64,000 nt of DNA from an uncultured Bacteroidales bacterium. Lineage in GTDB: Bacteria; Bacteroidota; Bacteroidia; Bacteroidales; UBA932. The DNA lies in NCBI GenBank assembly GCA_900317925.1, contig ONIQ01000001.1, forward strand, positions 18,300 to 82,299, written 5' to 3'. Of the stretch, positions 19,253 to 23,734 are shown one piece after another; position 1 is the stretch's first letter; the number at the start of each line of letters is the position of its first letter. The notes under the pieces were generated by a model. That model worked only from the letters and a program-made list of their open reading frames with translations, did no database searches and was not told the DNA's origin. Made by a program: the position numbers and the translations under genes.

Positions 19253-20086
19253 CTATCTCTTCTTCTTAGGGAGTATATAGCGCACGTAGCCCACGTGAAT
19301 TGAGAACACTTCGGCGTTCCGATTCAGCCCGAAAGAAGACATGGAAGCCTGATTATTCTCCTTTCCCACACCTTGCTGCTTGTCCTGGTGGGTATGGGTG
19401 TAACCGACACTCACGATTGGGACACTGAGCGTAAGGGCACTGTTGTCGCGCAGGCGCACACAAAGGCCACCGGCCAGTTTGATACCGGCTCCCCACGCGG
19501 TAGTATTACGACGGCGGCCCTCTTTCTCAATGTTATCTTCATCCAAAGGCCAGGACTTCACCCATCCGTAGTTTCCATACAGGCGGCCTTCTCCGAAAAC
19601 GGCAAACATCTTGCTGCCGAAAAAGGACACATAGCGACGGGCCGCGAGAGAGGCGCCGAAGGAATTGCTGTTCATGTGCCGGCACATAAGCCGCAGGTTC
19701 AGTTCCGGATCATCCGAGCCCGTCACCTGACGAATATCCAACTTTAAATCAGAATCAAGCGTATAACCGGTATATTCCAGGCGGACGCCGATGGAAAAAT
19801 CGTCGGCGGCAAACCAGGAATAACTGGGGGCGATGCTATAATAGTGAAGGGATCCGTTGCCGATGTTAAGCATGGATAAAATATGATAGCCGTCTCCATC
19901 CTGCTCGCCACCCGCATTGAAGTAACGATAGGTACCGGAAACGCCGGCGGCCCGGTGTCCTTTGGAGATGAAAACAGTACGACCCTTGGAAGGATCCGTA
20001 AAGCGGTCCAGGATACCGGACTCCTGGGTCTGTGCAAATGCAGACAGGCACAGGAGGGAACACGCTATAACCAAAACACGTTTCAT
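19253..20086 (-). CDS. Putative outer-membrane beta-barrel protein
   Basis: Start MKRVLVIACSLLCLSAFAQ at 20086 (longer ORF-track frame is shadow); alternating aromatic beta strands; TACCTTTG box at 20124-20131. Confidence 0.7.
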   Translation of the reverse strand: MKRVLVIACSLLCLSAFAQTQESGILDRFTDPSKGRTVFISKGHRAAGVSGTYRYFNAGGEQDGDGYHILSMLNIGNGSLHYYSIAPSYSWFAADDFSIGVRLEYTGYTLDSDLKLDIRQVTGSDDPELNLRLMCRHMNSNSFGASLAARRYVSFFGSKMFAVFGEGRLYGNYGWVKSWPLDEDNIEKEGRRRNTTAWGAGIKLAGGLCVRLRDNSALTLSVPIVSVGYTHTHQDKQQGVGKENNQASMSSFGLNRNAEVFSIHVGYVRYILPKKKR

Positions 20087-20179
20087 AGGTCCTGATAATC
20101 GATTATTCAAAAGTAATTGGGCGCAAAGGTATGAAAAAAAACGGGAATTCCGTGAAAAAGCCGTATCTTTACTATTTGT

Positions 20180-20680
20180 ATGAGAAAAGTACTGCTCCTT
20201 GCCGCCTTGTTGCTGCCATTGGCTGCCCAGGCCGGCCCGAAATACTCCCTGCTGGTGGACAAAGGCGCGTTCACCCTCTCGGTGCTGGACAAAGCGGGCC
20301 AGGCCGTCAAGACCTTCCCCGTCGCCACGGGCGAGAACGCAGGCCGCAAACGCAGGGCCGGCGACGCCAAGACGCCCGAAGGGACCTTCACCGTGACCTG
20401 GATCCAGAATACGCGCGGCGTGCTGTACGACTACCACGACGGCCACGGGCTGGTAGAGGCTTACGGGCCGTGGTTCATCCACCTGGAAACGGGCTTCAAA
20501 GCCATCGGCATCCACGGGTCCTGCCCGCATCGCGACGACCGCATCGGAACCCGCGACAGCAAGGGCTGCATCCGCCTGCACAACGCCGACCTCCTGGAAC
20601 TTCTCCCCTATGTAGAAAAGGGGACGAAAGTGATCATCCTCCCGGGGCCGGAAGACGCGCGCGTGGACGAGGATTTGTAA
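20180..20680 (+). CDS. L,D-transpeptidase (YkuD) family protein
   Basis: Signal peptide; TPEGTF, IGIHG...SKGCIRLHN. Confidence 0.9.
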   Translation: MRKVLLLAALLLPLAAQAGPKYSLLVDKGAFTLSVLDKAGQAVKTFPVATGENAGRKRRAGDAKTPEGTFTVTWIQNTRGVLYDYHDGHGLVEAYGPWFIHLETGFKAIGIHGSCPHRDDRIGTRDSKGCIRLHNADLLELLPYVEKGTKVIILPGPEDARVDEDL

Positions 20681-20697
20681 GCCCGCACTTTTTTCCG

Positions 20698-20705
20698 TAT
20701 TTTTG
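20698..20705 (+). promoter_or_regulatory. -7 promoter box for prfB-kinase-nucleotidyltransferase unit
   Basis: TATTTTTG 20 nt before ATG 20726. Confidence 0.55.
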
Positions 20706-20725
20706 TAAGTTATTTGAGTTCCGAC

Positions 20726-21826
20726 ATGACGACCATCGAACAGATAAAAGACCTCCACAAACGAATCGACACCCTCCGGGATTGTCTGGACATTTCCGGC
20801 AAGCGCGCGCAGGTGGAATCCCTGCAGAAAAAGACGGAAGCCGCCGATTTCTGGGACGATCCCAAGGCCGCACAGGCCTTCCTGAAGAACCTGAGCCGCG
20901 TCAAGGCATGGGTCATTGACTATGACAAGGCCCATTCGTCGGTCGAAGACCTGGATGTCCTCTACGAATTCAACGAAACCGAAGACCTGGACGCTTCGTA
21001 CGAAGAAGCCGTCAAACAGGTGGAAAACCTGGAGCTGAAAAACATGTTGGGGGCTGAGGGAGACAACCTGGGGGCCGTCCTCACCATCAATTCGGGGGCC
21101 GGCGGCACCGAAGCCAACGACTGGAGCGCCATGCTCATGCGCATGTACCTGCGCTGGGCCGAGCGGAACGGCTACAAGGCCGACGTGACCGGCCTGGTGG
21201 ACGGCGATGAAGCCGGTATCAAATCCGTTACGGTGGAAATTGAAGGAGACTATGCCTACGGCTACTTGAAGGCCGAAAACGGCGTCCACCGCCTGGTGCG
21301 CATCTCCCCTTTCAATGCCCAGGGCAAACGCCAGACCACCTTCTCCTCGGTCTTTGTCTATCCCCTCGTGGACGACAGCATCAACATCGAAATCAAGGAA
21401 TCCGACCTGGAATGGGACACCTTCCGCAGTGGCGGCCACGGCGGCCAGAACGTAAACAAGGTGGAAACCGGCGTGCGCGTACGCCACGTCCCTACGGGCA
21501 TCGTGGTTGAAAATACCGAAGGCCGCACCCAGATCGGCAACAAAGAAAACGCGCTGCGTATCCTGAAATCCCGTCTGTACGACATTGAGCTCAAGAAACG
21601 CCAGGAAAAACAGGCCGAATTGGAAGGACAGAAGAAACGCATCGAATGGGGGTCCCAGATCCGGTCCTATGTCCTCCATCCCTACAAGATGGTCAAAGAC
21701 CTGCGCACCGGTCTGTCCACCGCCGACACCCAGGGCGTCCTGGACGGTGACCTGGATGCCTTCATGCGCGCTTTCCTGATGCAACAGGGAAGCGGCGTCA
21801 CACCCGTTATCGAAGATATCGACTAA
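20726..21826 (+). CDS. prfB: Peptide chain release factor 2, no frameshift
   Basis: GAGGTEANDW, SPF motif, GGQNVNKVET, WGSQIRSY; single continuous frame. Confidence 0.97.
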   Translation: MTTIEQIKDLHKRIDTLRDCLDISGKRAQVESLQKKTEAADFWDDPKAAQAFLKNLSRVKAWVIDYDKAHSSVEDLDVLYEFNETEDLDASYEEAVKQVENLELKNMLGAEGDNLGAVLTINSGAGGTEANDWSAMLMRMYLRWAERNGYKADVTGLVDGDEAGIKSVTVEIEGDYAYGYLKAENGVHRLVRISPFNAQGKRQTTFSSVFVYPLVDDSINIEIKESDLEWDTFRSGGHGGQNVNKVETGVRVRHVPTGIVVENTEGRTQIGNKENALRILKSRLYDIELKKRQEKQAELEGQKKRIEWGSQIRSYVLHPYKMVKDLRTGLSTADTQGVLDGDLDAFMRAFLMQQGSGVTPVIEDID

Positions 21827-21830
21827 CCGC

Positions 21831-23009
21831 ATGCATATGGAATGTATCGAAAAATTTGAATCCATCTACCGGAAGAGCCCCGAGGATGTCGCCTTCTGCC
21901 CCTACCGGGTCTGCCCCGTAGGTGCTCACAGCGACCACCAGCTGGGCAAGATTACCGGCTTCGCCATCGACAAGGGCATCCACATCGCCTATGGCCCCAA
22001 AGCCAACGGCGTCGTGGAACTGGCCTCCCTGCAATTCGACAAACGCGCCCAGTGGCACGTCCGCGACGTTCCCGAGGTGAAATGCAACGACTGGGCCGAC
22101 TACCTGCGCGGTGCCACCCTCGAACTGAACAACCGCTATACCCTGCGGACCGGCATGAGCGGTGTCATCCAGGGAAGCCTCCCCATCGGCGGCCTTTCCT
22201 CGTCGGCGGCTGTGACCATCGTATTCCTCACCGCCCTGTGCCGGGTGAACGGAATCCGGATTTCGCCCGCCGAGCTCATCGATATCGCCCTCCACGCCGA
22301 AACGGACTATGTGGGCGTGTCCGTTGGCAAACTGGACCAGAGCTGCGAAGTCTATTCGCGCGCGCACCAGCTGCTGTACCTCGACACGAAGGACGACAGC
22401 TATGAACTCATTCCCGAGCAGCCGGGCATCCAACCGTGGAAGATCGCCATCTTCTTCTCGGGCATCGAGCGCAACCTCTCCGGCAGCAAATTCAACATGC
22501 GGGTCGATGAAGTCCGCTCCGCGGCCTATGCCTTGAAAGCCTACGCGGGCATGGAGTACGGAAAATTCAAGGAAACGCACTGCCGCGAAGTCCCGCGCGA
22601 AGTTTACGAACAATTCAAGGACCGCCTGCCCGAAACGTGGCGGCGCCGGGCCGAACATTTCTATTCGGAATTCGCCCGCGTGGAACAGGCCGCCGAAGCC
22701 TGGCGCAAGGGCGATATTGCCGAACTGGGCCGCATTTCAACCCAAAGCGGCGCCTCGTCCATCTACAATTGGGAGACCGGATCGCCCGAACTCAAGGCCC
22801 TGTACGAAATCATGACACACCAGGACGGCGTGTACGGAGGCCGCTTCAGCGGTGCCGGTTTCAAAGGTTGCTGCATGGCCCTGATCCATCCCGATTATGA
22901 AGAGCAGATTGCCCGGAACGTGGAAGAGGCCTACCTGAAGGTCTTCCCCGCCCTGCGTGGCAAATACCTGTATTGCGGTTGTGAATCCTCTGACGGCGTT
23001 ACCCTATGA
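21831..23009 (+). CDS. GHMP sugar kinase, galacturonokinase-like
   Basis: PYRVCPVGAHSDHQ, GGLSSSAA, GKLDQ, RAEHFYSE, GGRFSGAGFKGC. Confidence 0.85.
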   Translation: MHMECIEKFESIYRKSPEDVAFCPYRVCPVGAHSDHQLGKITGFAIDKGIHIAYGPKANGVVELASLQFDKRAQWHVRDVPEVKCNDWADYLRGATLELNNRYTLRTGMSGVIQGSLPIGGLSSSAAVTIVFLTALCRVNGIRISPAELIDIALHAETDYVGVSVGKLDQSCEVYSRAHQLLYLDTKDDSYELIPEQPGIQPWKIAIFFSGIERNLSGSKFNMRVDEVRSAAYALKAYAGMEYGKFKETHCREVPREVYEQFKDRLPETWRRRAEHFYSEFARVEQAAEAWRKGDIAELGRISTQSGASSIYNWETGSPELKALYEIMTHQDGVYGGRFSGAGFKGCCMALIHPDYEEQIARNVEEAYLKVFPALRGKYLYCGCESSDGVTL

Positions 23010-23734
23010 AATGTCTGATCCTCGCTGCGGGCTATGCGACCCGCCTGTATCCGCTCACGGAAAATTTTCCCAAGCCCCTTTTGAAAGTGGGCGATAAAAC
23101 CATTCTGGACTGGCTCATCGACGACATCCGTTCCAGCGGCATTGTGGACGAGTTCGCCGTGGTAACCAACCATCGCTTTGCGCCCATCTTCCGCGAATGG
23201 GCCCCGGTGGGCGTTACCATCGTAGATGACGGAACCTCTACCAACGAGACGCGTCTGGGGGCCGTAAAAGACATCCAGTTCGCCATCGAGTCCCTGGCCC
23301 TGGACGATGACCTGCTGGTCATCGCCGGCGATAACGTCTTGGATTTCAGCCTGGTGAAGTTCATCGACTACGCCCGCACAAAGGGCACGAGTTGCATCAT
23401 GCGCTACTTCGAGCCCGATGAGGCCCGCCTGCACAAATGCGGCATCGTGGAGACCGATGCCGAGGACCGCGTCCTGTCGATGGAGGAGAAGCCAGCCCAG
23501 CCCCGTTCCCACTGGTGCTGTCCACCTTTTTATTATTATACGAAGGCCGGCGCCCGGCTGGTCGCCCGGGGAATCGAAGCGGGTTGCGGCACCGACGCAC
23601 CCGGCTCGTACATTGCCTGGCTCTGCACCCAGACAAGCGTCCACGCCATGGAAATGCCCGGCAGTCGCTACGATATCGGCAACCTGGAAAGCTACCGAAC
23701 CGTTTGCGAAACGTATAAAGGGATTACCCGCTAG
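23006..23734 (+). CDS. Sugar-1-phosphate nucleotidyltransferase
   Basis: ILAAGYATRLYPLT..PKPLL, RLGAVKD, IAGDN, EEKP, DIG; ATGA overlap with kinase. Confidence 0.9.
   Translation: MKCLILAAGYATRLYPLTENFPKPLLKVGDKTILDWLIDDIRSSGIVDEFAVVTNHRFAPIFREWAPVGVTIVDDGTSTNETRLGAVKDIQFAIESLALDDDLLVIAGDNVLDFSLVKFIDYARTKGTSCIMRYFEPDEARLHKCGIVETDAEDRVLSMEEKPAQPRSHWCCPPFYYYTKAGARLVARGIEAGCGTDAPGSYIAWLCTQTSVHAMEMPGSRYDIGNLESYRTVCETYKGITR

What the first reader, a model, noticed from the sequence alone, without database searches (positions are those of the whole stretch)
21831..23734. Candidate bacterial uronic-acid salvage pathway: galacturonokinase-like kinase plus pyrophosphorylase
Seen: two translationally coupled genes (ATGA overlap) right after prfB. 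The kinase sugar-binding motif is PYRVCPVGAHSDHQ, not the GRVNLIGEHTDY of true galactokinases (Glu replaced by Ala, Tyr by His). Recalled knowledge: this motif, plus RAEHFYSE, SGASSIYNWETG and GGRFSGAGFKGC, closely follows plant galacturonokinase (Arabidopsis GalAK). The partner's GT....RLGAVKD and DDLLVIAGD segments resemble the nucleotidyltransferase domain of the vertebrate glucuronokinase/pyrophosphorylase fusion. Inference: free GalA or GlcA (e.g. from pectin) is phosphorylated at C1 and activated to UDP-uronic acid for glycan synthesis, instead of entering the UxaC/UxuA catabolic route. I know of no characterised bacterial version, but cannot confirm novelty without a search.
Basis: partly seen in the sequence, partly recalled or inferred. 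Interest (0 to 1): 0.82.

Follow-up and report, generated by a model that had tools for sequence, protein, structure and literature searches.

The report
Bacterial galacturonokinase-like kinase plus nucleotidyltransferase
A rumen-type Bacteroidales genome carries a tightly coupled gene pair, a relative of the plant galacturonic-acid kinase and a small sugar-phosphate nucleotidyltransferase, that most likely turns free pectin-derived uronic acid directly into a UDP-sugar for surface glycans; this route is widespread in gut bacteria and I found no experimental test of it in bacteria.

Summary
The 392-aa GHMP kinase (21831..23009) and the 242-aa NTP_transferase (23006..23734) overlap by ATGA and start 4 nt after prfB.

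The kinase is not a true galactokinase. It scores below every NCBIfam GalK cut-off, and the genome has a canonical GalK elsewhere. It is 37% identical to database plant galacturonokinase and shares the PYRxCPxGAHxDHQ, RAEHxxSE and RFSGAGF[KR]GC motifs. In trees it sits with plant GalAK, split 100/100 from bacterial and archaeal GalKs.

The pair is conserved in 79 of 80 related loci, at about 70% identity in both Bacteroidales and Clostridia. It often lies beside a UDP-glucuronate 4-epimerase-type SDR and Ugd. The transferase also occurs naturally fused to that epimerase (56 clusters), to Ugd (5), to the kinase (12) and to a mutarotase.

This genome has UxaC and six GH28 matches but no Ugd and no such epimerase. 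Salvage would therefore be its only detectable route to a UDP-uronate.

GalA versus GlcA is open: Phe221 replaces the plant Tyr250. The claimed resemblance to the vertebrate fusion enzyme could not be tested. I rate it a new variant of a known kind, of moderate interest.

The parts
21831..23009 (+). GalAK-like GHMP anomeric sugar kinase, 392 aa. An alternative start at 21837 matches the homologues' N-termini.
   Evidence: Pfam GalKase_gal_bdg/GHMP N/GHMP C; TIGR00131 175.9 bits against a cut-off of 226.65; 37% identity to plant GalAK P0287; in the GalAK clade, separate from GalK.
21900..21941 (+). Sugar-binding signature PYRVCPVGAHSDHQ. Arg26 is kept. Ala32 stands in place of the GalK Glu (equivalent to AtGalAK Ala41). 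His36 stands in place of the GalK Tyr.
   Evidence: Alignment; residue numbering. The own-genome GalK has GRVNLIGEHTDYNGG.
22179..22211 (+). GHMP motif II (ATP/phosphate loop), LPIGGLSSSAA.
   Evidence: conserved in all GalK and GalAK rows.
22326..22343 (+). GKLDQS. Asp169 aligns with the Asp of the GalK G-I-M-D-Q motif, which I recall as the catalytic base.
   Evidence: alignment.
22485..22505 (+). SKFNMRV. Phe221 sits at the position of AtGalAK Tyr250 and the GalK Tyr.
   Evidence: It is Phe in 93 and Tyr in 26 of 120 close homologues.
22836..22871 (+). GHMP motif III, GGRFSGAGFKGC. Ala342 is equivalent to AtGalAK Ala368. Lys345 stands where plant GalAK has Arg371 and GalK has Gly.
   Evidence: GAGFKGC in 117 of 120 close homologues.
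23006..23009 (+). ATGA stop/start overlap, indicating translational coupling.
   Evidence: The same overlap occurs in 34 of 79 related loci; the rest have gaps of 2-129 nt.
23006..23734 (+). Short RmlA-like sugar-1-phosphate nucleotidyltransferase, 242 aa. Inferred to be a UTP:uronate-1-phosphate uridylyltransferase.
   Evidence: PF00483, E 7.7e-28; below all NCBIfam equivalog cut-offs; best PDB match is RmlA 1lvw at E 3.6e-16, with the TRL Arg, KxLL Lys, GDN Asp and EEKP conserved; natural fusions to a UDP-GlcA 4-epimerase-type SDR, to Ugd, to the GalAK-like kinase and to aldose 1-epimerase.
20714..21826 (+). prfB (RF2). It is upstream, on the same strand, and ends 4 nt before the kinase. It is context only: it probably supplies transcription and is not part of the module.
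   Evidence: PCRF + RF-1 domains. The adjacency is found only in the 97%-identical locus L001.

Best explanation
This is a two-enzyme salvage module for uronic acids.

Proposed steps:
1. The kinase, a bacterial member of the galacturonokinase (GalAK) branch of the galactokinase family, uses ATP to phosphorylate the anomeric C1-OH of free alpha-D-galacturonic acid. Because Phe221 replaces the plant Tyr250, it may also accept the C4 epimer, glucuronic acid.
2. The translationally coupled RmlA-like nucleotidyltransferase condenses the uronate-1-phosphate with UTP to give UDP-GalA (or UDP-GlcA) plus pyrophosphate.
3. The UDP-uronate feeds glycosyltransferases that build capsule, LPS or other surface glycans.

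In many other genomes the adjacent or fused UDP-GlcA 4-epimerase would equilibrate the salvaged UDP-uronate with the de novo pool made by Ugd.

This genome degrades pectin (GH28, UxaC) but has no Ugd and no such epimerase. The module would therefore be its only detectable source of UDP-uronate and would branch off the same intracellular GalA pool that UxaC catabolises.

What is shown: gene structure, family membership, phylogenetic position, conserved catalytic residues, conserved pairing, and contexts and fusions. What is inferred: the substrate (GalA or GlcA), the nucleotide (UTP) and the fate of the product.
For: Kinase:
- It has the GHMP/GalK fold domains but scores below all five GalK equivalog cut-offs.
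- The genome has a separate canonical GalK that scores 279.5 bits and carries GRVNLIGEHTDYNGG.
- It is 37% identical (E 2e-69) to database plant galacturonokinase and shares its signature motifs.
- In ML trees GalK and the GalAK-like clade are split with SH-aLRT 100 and 100/100, with plant GalAK inside the bacterial clade.
- Arg26, Asp169 and the ATP loop are conserved. Ala32 replaces the GalK Glu, as does Ala41 of AtGalAK. A basic residue (Lys345, plant Arg371) replaces Gly in motif III.

Pair and context:
- The pair is conserved in 79 of 80 loci, with the ATGA overlap in 34.
- In 19 of the 80 loci a 5u4q/BcUGAepi/MoeE5-like SDR directly follows the pair, often followed by Ugd.
- In three same-genus genomes, dehydrogenase genes of the Ugd family lie within about 1 kb of the kinase.
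- Fusions among proteins carrying a homologous NTase domain: 56 clusters of NTase plus the GAE-type SDR (one from the isolate Xylanibacter ruminicola; two named 'UDP-glucuronate 4-epimerase' by JGI), 5 of NTase plus Ugd, 12 of kinase plus NTase, and NTase plus aldose 1-epimerase.
- The NTase keeps the catalytic Arg, Lys, Asp and EEKP of RmlA.

Own genome: UxaC is present and there are six GH28 matches. No Ugd-family gene was found and no GAE-type epimerase.

The known plant route, GalAK plus USP giving UDP-GalA, is described in PMC8636097.
Against: - No biochemical datum exists for any bacterial member that I could find.
- In this window the neighbours are housekeeping genes, so nothing local links the pair to a glycan locus or to GalA uptake.
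- Phe221 replaces Tyr250 of AtGalAK. From my memory of Yang et al. 2009 (paper not held), that residue matters for C4 specificity, so GalA specificity cannot simply be transferred.
- The NTase belongs to a different family from the plant partner USP, and its nucleotide and sugar specificities rest on association only.
- One distant NTase homologue (38% identity) is fused to a canonical GalK (P0525), so the NTase family is not restricted to uronates.
- The genome lacks both GalT types, so the NTase might also, or instead, serve Gal-1-P.
- The genome is a 95%-complete MAG, so the absence of Ugd is not absolute.
Confidence: 0.65

Rival explanations
1. The kinase is primarily a glucuronokinase, or a non-selective GalA/GlcA kinase. 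On this reading the module salvages glucuronic acid (host glucuronides, xylan side chains) into UDP-GlcA, and the 4-epimerase found in other genomes makes UDP-GalA from it.
For: Phe occupies the position of AtGalAK Tyr250 in the window and in 93 of 120 close homologues. As I recall Yang et al. 2009, the Y250F mutant of GalAK gained activity on GlcA. Fusion to a UDP-GlcA 4-epimerase is equally compatible with flow in either direction.
Against: Known glucuronokinases (plant GlcAK, zebrafish GKUP) form a different GHMP branch closer to fucokinase (PMC2823444), not the GalK/GalAK branch. Tyr and Phe alternate among very close relatives: L002 is 77% identical and has Tyr. That argues against a sharp switch of function. 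The organism is a pectin degrader (GH28), so GalA is the abundant free uronate.
Confidence: 0.15
2. The pair activates a neutral galacto-configured sugar (D-galactose, L-arabinose, D-fucose or GalNAc) to an NDP-sugar. One possibility is a Leloir bypass, since the genome lacks GalT.
For: Membership of the galactokinase family. No GalT of type 1 or type 2 in the genome. One distant NTase homologue is fused to a canonical GalK (P0525). A GalE gene lies just upstream of the kinase in some loci.
Against: The Glu that is invariant in the canonical GalKs aligned here is Ala across the GalAK-like clade. The kinase is separated 100/100 from GalKs. The genome already has a canonical GalK. GalK is nearly universal in the genus, whereas the pair is present in only 8 of 19 genomes, so the pair is not the general answer to a missing GalT. 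The dominant fusion and neighbourhood partners are enzymes of UDP-uronate metabolism.
Confidence: 0.12
3. The module is part of a catabolic or regulatory route, not glycan supply. It might be an alternative way of funnelling uronates into central metabolism through nucleotide sugars, or it might make a signalling or storage sugar-phosphate.
For: In this window the pair sits among housekeeping genes directly behind prfB, not in a glycan locus. In several Bacteroidales it lies beside pgi.
Against: The genome has the standard UxaC route. No UXS or other enzyme that consumes UDP-uronate was detected. In many Clostridia and Bacteroidaceae the pair lies inside typical polysaccharide loci with FnlB/WecB-type, DegT, RmlB, Ugd and UpxY-like genes.
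Confidence: 0.05

Closest known systems
Plant galacturonokinase GalAK (Arabidopsis At3g10700, EC 2.7.1.44; Yang et al. 2009 J Biol Chem 284:21526, cited in PMC8636097) acting with UDP-sugar pyrophosphorylase USP/SLOPPY
   Same: The kinase is in the same GHMP sub-branch: 37% identity and a shared clade. It has the same signature changes relative to GalK: Ala for Glu, DHQ for DYN, and a basic residue in motif III. The two-step logic is the same: anomeric kinase, then pyrophosphorylase, giving the UDP-uronate.
   Different: The second enzyme is a short (242-aa) RmlA-like PF00483 transferase encoded in the same operon, not the large promiscuous PF01704 USP. Phe replaces Tyr250. The module is often fused or adjacent to a UDP-GlcA 4-epimerase or Ugd. 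I found no experimental data for bacteria.
Canonical galactokinase GalK (EC 2.7.1.6; TIGR00131; PDB 2cz9, 1s4e, 1pie, 1wuu)
   Same: Same fold and domain set. The catalytic Arg and Asp and the ATP loop are conserved.
   Different: It scores below the family cut-off and lacks the GEHTDY signature. It is in a separate clade. The genome has its own GalK.
Bacteroides Fkp (L-fucokinase/GDP-fucose pyrophosphorylase; PMC11982464) and Tannerella/Pseudomonas AmgK-MurU
   Same: These are bacterial salvage routes in which an anomeric kinase and an NTP-transferase activate an environmental sugar for surface glycans. Kinase-NTase fusions of the present family also exist.
   Different: They act on different sugars and nucleotides (GDP-fucose, UDP-MurNAc). 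Fkp's kinase is in the fucokinase branch, and AmgK is not a GHMP kinase (recalled).
Vertebrate glucuronokinase/putative UDP-GlcA pyrophosphorylase GKUP (zebrafish; Gangl et al. 2014, PMC3938481)
   Same: It combines a uronic-acid anomeric kinase with a short bacterial-type NTP-transferase domain. The paper reports that the closest homologues of that domain are stand-alone transferases of gut Ruminococcus and Firmicutes.
   Different: The kinase domain is GlcAK-type, not GalAK-type. The pyrophosphorylase activity was not demonstrable in vitro. Whether the window transferase belongs to that same sub-family was not testable here.
RmlA glucose-1-phosphate thymidylyltransferase (PDB 1lvw and others)
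   Same: It is the best structural-database relative of the transferase (E 3.6e-16), with the catalytic residues conserved.
   Different: Identity is only about 25%. The window protein lacks the C-terminal tetramerisation part, has AGYATRL instead of GGSGTRL, and falls below all equivalog cut-offs.

Membership tests
GHMP kinase superfamily / galactokinase family (Pfam) | GalKase_gal_bdg, GHMP_kinases_N and GHMP_kinases_C domains above the gathering scores | tested here: met
   42.7, 44.7 and 37.9 bits against cut-offs of 23.1, 22.3 and 21.
Bona fide galactokinase GalK (EC 2.7.1.6) | Score above the NCBIfam equivalog cut-off (TIGR00131 226.65 bits; PRK models 385-509) | tested here: not met
   175.9 bits for TIGR00131, and every PRK model is far below its cut-off; the own-genome GalK scores 279.5.
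Bona fide galactokinase GalK (EC 2.7.1.6) | Signature G-R-V-N-L-I-G-E-H-T-D-Y, including the Glu that I recall as galactose-binding | tested here: not met
   the window has YRVCPVGAHSDHQ, with Ala32 for the Glu and His36 for the Tyr.
Bona fide galactokinase GalK (EC 2.7.1.6) | Groups with characterised GalKs in a tree | tested here: not met
   the GalKs (E. coli, Bacteroidales, Pyrococcus) are one side of a 100/100 branch and the window kinase is on the other side.
Galacturonokinase GalAK (EC 2.7.1.44) | Closer in sequence to plant GalAK than to GalK, and in the same clade | tested here: met
   213 bits and 37% identity to P0287, against 127 bits and 30% identity (tblastn) for the own-genome GalK. 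Searches give the clade.
Galacturonokinase GalAK (EC 2.7.1.44) | Ala at the AtGalAK position 41, in place of the GalK Glu | tested here: met
   Ala32. GAH was found in every GalAK-like sequence where the motif could be read, apart from one GCH.
Galacturonokinase GalAK (EC 2.7.1.44) | Tyr at the AtGalAK position 250 (I recall it as a determinant of C4 specificity) | tested here: not met
   Phe221. It is Phe in 93 and Tyr in 26 of 120 close homologues.
Galacturonokinase GalAK (EC 2.7.1.44) | Ala at the AtGalAK position 368 and a basic residue at 371 in motif III | tested here: met
   Ala342 and Lys345 (GAGFKGC).
Galacturonokinase GalAK (EC 2.7.1.44) | ATP-dependent formation of alpha-D-GalA-1-phosphate | not testable with these tools
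   This needs an enzyme assay.
Sugar-1-phosphate nucleotidyltransferase (PF00483, RmlA-like) | Domain match, with conserved Arg (G-x-G-T-R-L region), Lys (K-x-L-L), Asp (G-D-N) and E-E-K-P | tested here: met
   (98.1 bits). alignment to 1lvw: YATRL, KPLL, AGDN and EEKP are all aligned.
UDP-sugar pyrophosphorylase USP (PF01704), the plant partner of GalAK | UDPGP domain | tested here: not met
   the window transferase has no PF01704 hit; no hit in the genome, but the controls did not ring either, so the genome-wide result is inconclusive.
GKUP-type pyrophosphorylase domain (vertebrate glucuronokinase fusion) | Specific sequence relationship to the DrGKUP N-terminal domain | not tested
   No GKUP sequence could be fetched. 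The fusion search returned none. PMC3938481 reports only that the closest bacterial relatives are gut Firmicutes transferases.

The most novel reading that the evidence does not exclude
The pair is a self-contained, horizontally mobile uronic-acid salvage cassette exchanged between Bacteroidota and Bacillota in gut and rumen. Its transferase would found a dedicated family of UDP-uronate pyrophosphorylases, possibly the working counterpart of the vertebrate GKUP domain whose activity has never been shown. In genomes like this one, which have neither Ugd nor a UDP-GlcA 4-epimerase, surface-glycan uronic acids would come only from dietary pectin, so the cell surface would depend directly on diet.
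Probability: 0.3. Interest if true: 0.7.

Novelty: new variant of a known kind. Interest (0 to 1): 0.55.

Why it matters
UDP-GalA and UDP-GlcA are precursors of many capsules, O-antigens and LPS cores. In bacteria they are described as arising by oxidation of UDP-glucose (Ugd) followed by epimerisation.

A direct route from free uronic acid to the UDP-sugar would link pectin (or glucuronide) degradation in gut and rumen to the make-up of the bacterial surface. It would explain how organisms without Ugd obtain UDP-uronates. It would also supply stable bacterial enzymes for one-pot synthesis of UDP-GalA, which one group found impractical because the plant GalA kinase was unstable and too weakly active in their hands (PMC7984243).

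The family is large: 8000 of the 8000 candidates scored were significant, and 637 50%-identity clusters score below 1e-30. I found no experimental study of it.

Tried and rejected
- Yang et al. 2009 (the GalAK paper) could not be read: DOI and PMC2755877 are not held. Statements about the A41, Y250 and A368 mutants are therefore recalled, not verified. A full-text search for 'Y250F' found nothing.
- The tomato GHMP paper has no held supplements.
- Looking up names of 10 mid-distance representatives did not reveal plant sequences. I then used a from-memory bait only to fish real database GalAKs. All comparisons use the database sequences.
- A search for GalK active-site literature gave nothing usable.
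- The PF01704 genome search is uninformative because the controls did not ring.
- The fusion search did not retrieve vertebrate GKUP, so that resemblance stays untested.
- I rejected prfB linkage as functional: the adjacency is seen only in the 97%-identical locus.
- I rejected the NTase as the general GalT replacement: the pair is in 8 of 19 genus genomes, whereas GalK is in most.
- I did not run structure prediction, because the tools give no access to coordinates for judging which residues lie near the sugar C6.
Full report
**1. Observation**

The window holds two same-strand ORFs. One is a 392-aa protein at 21831..23009 and the other a 242-aa protein at 23006..23734. They overlap in the sequence ATGA. 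The upstream ORF 20714..21826 is RF2 (PCRF + RF-1 domains) and ends 4 nt before the kinase ATG. A second in-frame ATG at 21837 matches the N-termini of homologues.

The first protein has the GalKase_gal_bdg, GHMP_kinases_N and GHMP_kinases_C domains. The second has the NTP_transferase domain.

**2. The kinase is not a galactokinase**

- It matches five NCBIfam GalK equivalog models, but all far below their cut-offs (for example TIGR00131 at 175.9 against 226.65 bits).
- The same genome (2.18 Mb, 95% complete) encodes a canonical GalK on another contig. It scores 279.5 bits and has the GRVNLIGEHTDYNGG signature.
- In the window kinase the signature reads YRVCPVGAHSDHQ. The Arg is kept, Ala32 replaces the Glu, and His36 replaces the Tyr.
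- The motif II ATP loop is conserved (LPIGGLSSSAA).
- Asp169, in GKLDQS, aligns with the Asp of the GalK G-I-M-D-Q motif, which I recall as the catalytic base.

The enzyme therefore looks catalytically competent.

**3. Comparison with plant galacturonokinase**

The original GalAK paper is not in the library. I used a from-memory bait only to fish real database entries. This returned more than 100 plant proteins named galacturonokinase, including an Arabidopsis-type 424-aa sequence (P0287).

BLASTP of the window kinase against P0287 gives 37% identity, 213 bits and E 2e-69 over nearly the full length. For comparison, tblastn against the genome's own GalK gives 30% identity and 127 bits.

The motifs correspond as follows:

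| Window kinase | Plant GalAK (P0287) |
|---|---|
| PYRVCPVGAHSDHQ | PYRICPLGAHIDHQ |
| RRAEHFYSE | KRAEHYFSE |
| GGRFSGAGFKGC | GARFSGAGFRGC |

By the numbering of P0287, Ala32 corresponds to Ala41, Ala342 to Ala368, and Lys345 to Arg371. Canonical GalKs have Gly at that last position.

One difference stands out. The position of AtGalAK Tyr250, which is also Tyr in 10 of the 12 canonical GalKs examined, is Phe221 in the window. Among 120 close homologues it is Phe in 93 and Tyr in 26, while GAGFKGC is nearly invariant at 117 of 120. As I recall the 2009 paper, a Y250F mutant of GalAK gained activity on GlcA. I could not verify this, so GalA versus GlcA preference is left open.

**4. Phylogeny**

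The first tree had 119 sequences: the window family, 85 representatives from an exhaustive search, 6 plant GalAKs and 12 canonical GalKs. It splits the GalKs from everything else with SH-aLRT 100, and the plant GalAKs nest among bacterial representatives.

The second tree was a careful run on 56 sequences, with two archaeal PDB GalKs added (rebuilt from the alignment printed). It gives 100/100 for the same split and 100/100 for plant GalAK monophyly within the GalAK-like side.

**5. The pair is a conserved module**

- Of 80 related genome loci, 79 have the transferase (61-77% identity outside the near-identical L001) directly after the kinase.
- 34 of them have the same 4-nt overlap. The others have gaps of 2-129 nt.
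- The prfB adjacency exists only in the 97%-identical locus L001.
- The loci come from Bacteroidales and from Clostridia (Oscillospiraceae, Acutalibacteraceae, Lachnospiraceae), at about 70% identity in both, and the two phyla are intermixed in the tree. This pattern suggests horizontal exchange.
- The module is accessory. It is present in 8 of 19 genomes of the same genus.
- An even sample of the order finds a homologue (42-48% identity) in only 6 of 300 other genomes.

**6. What the context says about the substrate**

- In 19 of the 80 loci an SDR of about 357 aa directly follows the pair.
- Its best solved relative is 5u4q from Klebsiella (369 bits). I recall 5u4q as the Uge/GlaKP UDP-galacturonate 4-epimerase. 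The next relatives include the Bacillus cereus UDP-glucuronic acid 4-epimerase (6zl6) and MoeE5.
- A UDP-glucose 6-dehydrogenase often follows (574 bits to NF011631).
- In three same-genus genomes, dehydrogenase genes of the Ugd family lie within about 1 kb of the kinase.
- Other frequent neighbours are typical polysaccharide-locus genes: WecB-type 2-epimerase, WbcJ/CapF-type reductase, DegT, RmlA/RmlB, GalE and a NusG/UpxY-like gene.

Natural fusions give stronger evidence. I searched for longer proteins that carry a domain homologous to the window transferase. Local domain assignment by BLASTP on the hits gave the following:

| Fusion partner of the NTase domain | Clusters | Notes |
|---|---|---|
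| Epimerase-type SDR | 56 | SDR domain is a median 68% identical to the L010 SDR; one is from the isolate Xylanibacter ruminicola; two are named 'UDP-glucuronate 4-epimerase' by JGI |
| GalAK-like kinase | 12 | |
| Ugd | 5 | |
| Aldose 1-epimerase | at least 3 | By the precomputed Pfam lists; confirmed for P0410 |
| Canonical GalK | 1 | The NTase here is a distant homologue (38% identity) |

A transferase fused again and again to a UDP-GlcA 4-epimerase and to Ugd most simply makes a UDP-uronic acid. A mutarotase fusion fits an anomer-specific kinase upstream.

**7. The transferase itself**

It is a short RmlA-like enzyme. Its best PDB match is 1lvw (E 3.6e-16). In the alignment the Arg of the TRL motif, the Lys of KPLL, the Asp of GDN and EEKP are all conserved. 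It is below every NCBIfam equivalog cut-off. It is not of the USP/UDPGP family that partners GalAK in plants (plant route per PMC8636097).

Gangl et al. 2014 report that the pyrophosphorylase domain of zebrafish GKUP is most similar to stand-alone transferases of gut Ruminococcus and Firmicutes.

**8. This genome in particular**

| Feature | Result |
|---|---|
| UxaC | present, 633 bits |
| GH28 (polygalacturonase family) | six matches |
| Nucleotide-sugar dehydrogenase of the Ugd family | none found |
| GAE-type epimerase | none found; only GalE and RmlB |
| UXS-like SDR | none found |
| GalT type 1 or type 2 | none found |

The organism releases and catabolises galacturonate, and the pair would be its only detectable route to a UDP-uronate. 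The pathway therefore runs in parallel with UxaC, not instead of it. The immediate neighbours in the window are housekeeping genes (YceD, YkuD, RF2, RsmD, DHH phosphoesterase), so nothing local identifies the acceptor glycan.

**9. Mechanism proposed**

Free alpha-D-GalA (possibly also GlcA) plus ATP gives uronate-1-phosphate, catalysed by the kinase. In this step Arg26 and Asp169 act at the anomeric OH. Ala32 makes room for the C6 carboxylate, and Lys345 may pair with it. The roles of Ala32 and Lys345 are inferred.

Uronate-1-phosphate plus UTP then gives the UDP-uronate plus PPi, catalysed by the transferase. The product goes to glycosyltransferases.

Family membership, conserved residues, pairing, contexts and fusions are shown. 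The substrate, the nucleotide and the fate of the product are inferred. I put 0.65 on this explanation. The rivals are GlcA as the main substrate (0.15), a neutral galacto-sugar or Gal-1-P bypass (0.12), and a non-glycan role (0.05).

**10. Novelty**

Seven full-text searches found no paper on a bacterial galacturonokinase or on this pair. JGI annotation already labels some homologues 'galactokinase/galacturonokinase', so the homology is known to pipelines. Earlier notes of this scan describe the same module in other genomes and reach similar readings. They are not independent evidence.

I rate the finding a new variant of a known kind: plant-type GalAK logic, with a different, dedicated and often fused transferase. 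Interest is moderate (0.55). It is credible, widespread and testable, and it has biotechnological use. It is not conceptually new, and this window is not a unique instance.

Noticed in passing
window 20714-21826: prfB (RF2) reads as one uninterrupted ORF of 370 aa, with LRDCLDISGK where E. coli RF2 has its programmed +1 frameshift site. This RF2 apparently needs no frameshift.
   Followed up: no
window 19253-21865 (minus strand): An 870-aa antisense ORF spans prfB and the YkuD gene. It is almost certainly an artefact of the GC-rich sequence. Only its C-terminal part, about 19256-20089, looks like a real gene: it begins with a signal peptide (MKRVLVIACSLLCLSAFAQ) and has no Pfam match.
   Followed up: partly
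loci L016:3812-4984, L055, L044, L012 and others (cluster c4): A protein of about 390 aa belonging to PF14907 ('Uncharacterised nucleotidyltransferase', NTP_transf_5) recurs near the kinase-transferase pair in 12 Clostridia loci. It has no NCBIfam match and its role is unknown.
   Followed up: partly
P0525 (623 aa): A distant homologue of the transferase (38% identity) is fused to a canonical GalK that carries GRINIIGEHTDYNNGY. This may be a one-protein UTP-dependent route from galactose to UDP-Gal that bypasses GalT.
   Followed up: no
genome G000: The genome has a canonical GalK and two GalM-like mutarotases but no GalT of either type. How Gal-1-P is converted further in this lineage is unclear.
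   Followed up: partly
loci L006, L008, L013, L015, L017-L021 (cluster c6): In several Bacteroidaceae a GSCFA-family gene (PF08885) directly follows the pair on the same strand. No functional link is evident.
   Followed up: no
loci L024, L025, L030, L038, L046, L064, L066, L076, L080: In many Bacteroidales glucose-6-phosphate isomerase (pgi) lies directly upstream of the kinase on the same strand, and in some prfA lies downstream. The pair keeps turning up beside housekeeping genes in this phylum, whereas in Clostridia it lies in glycan loci.
   Followed up: partly
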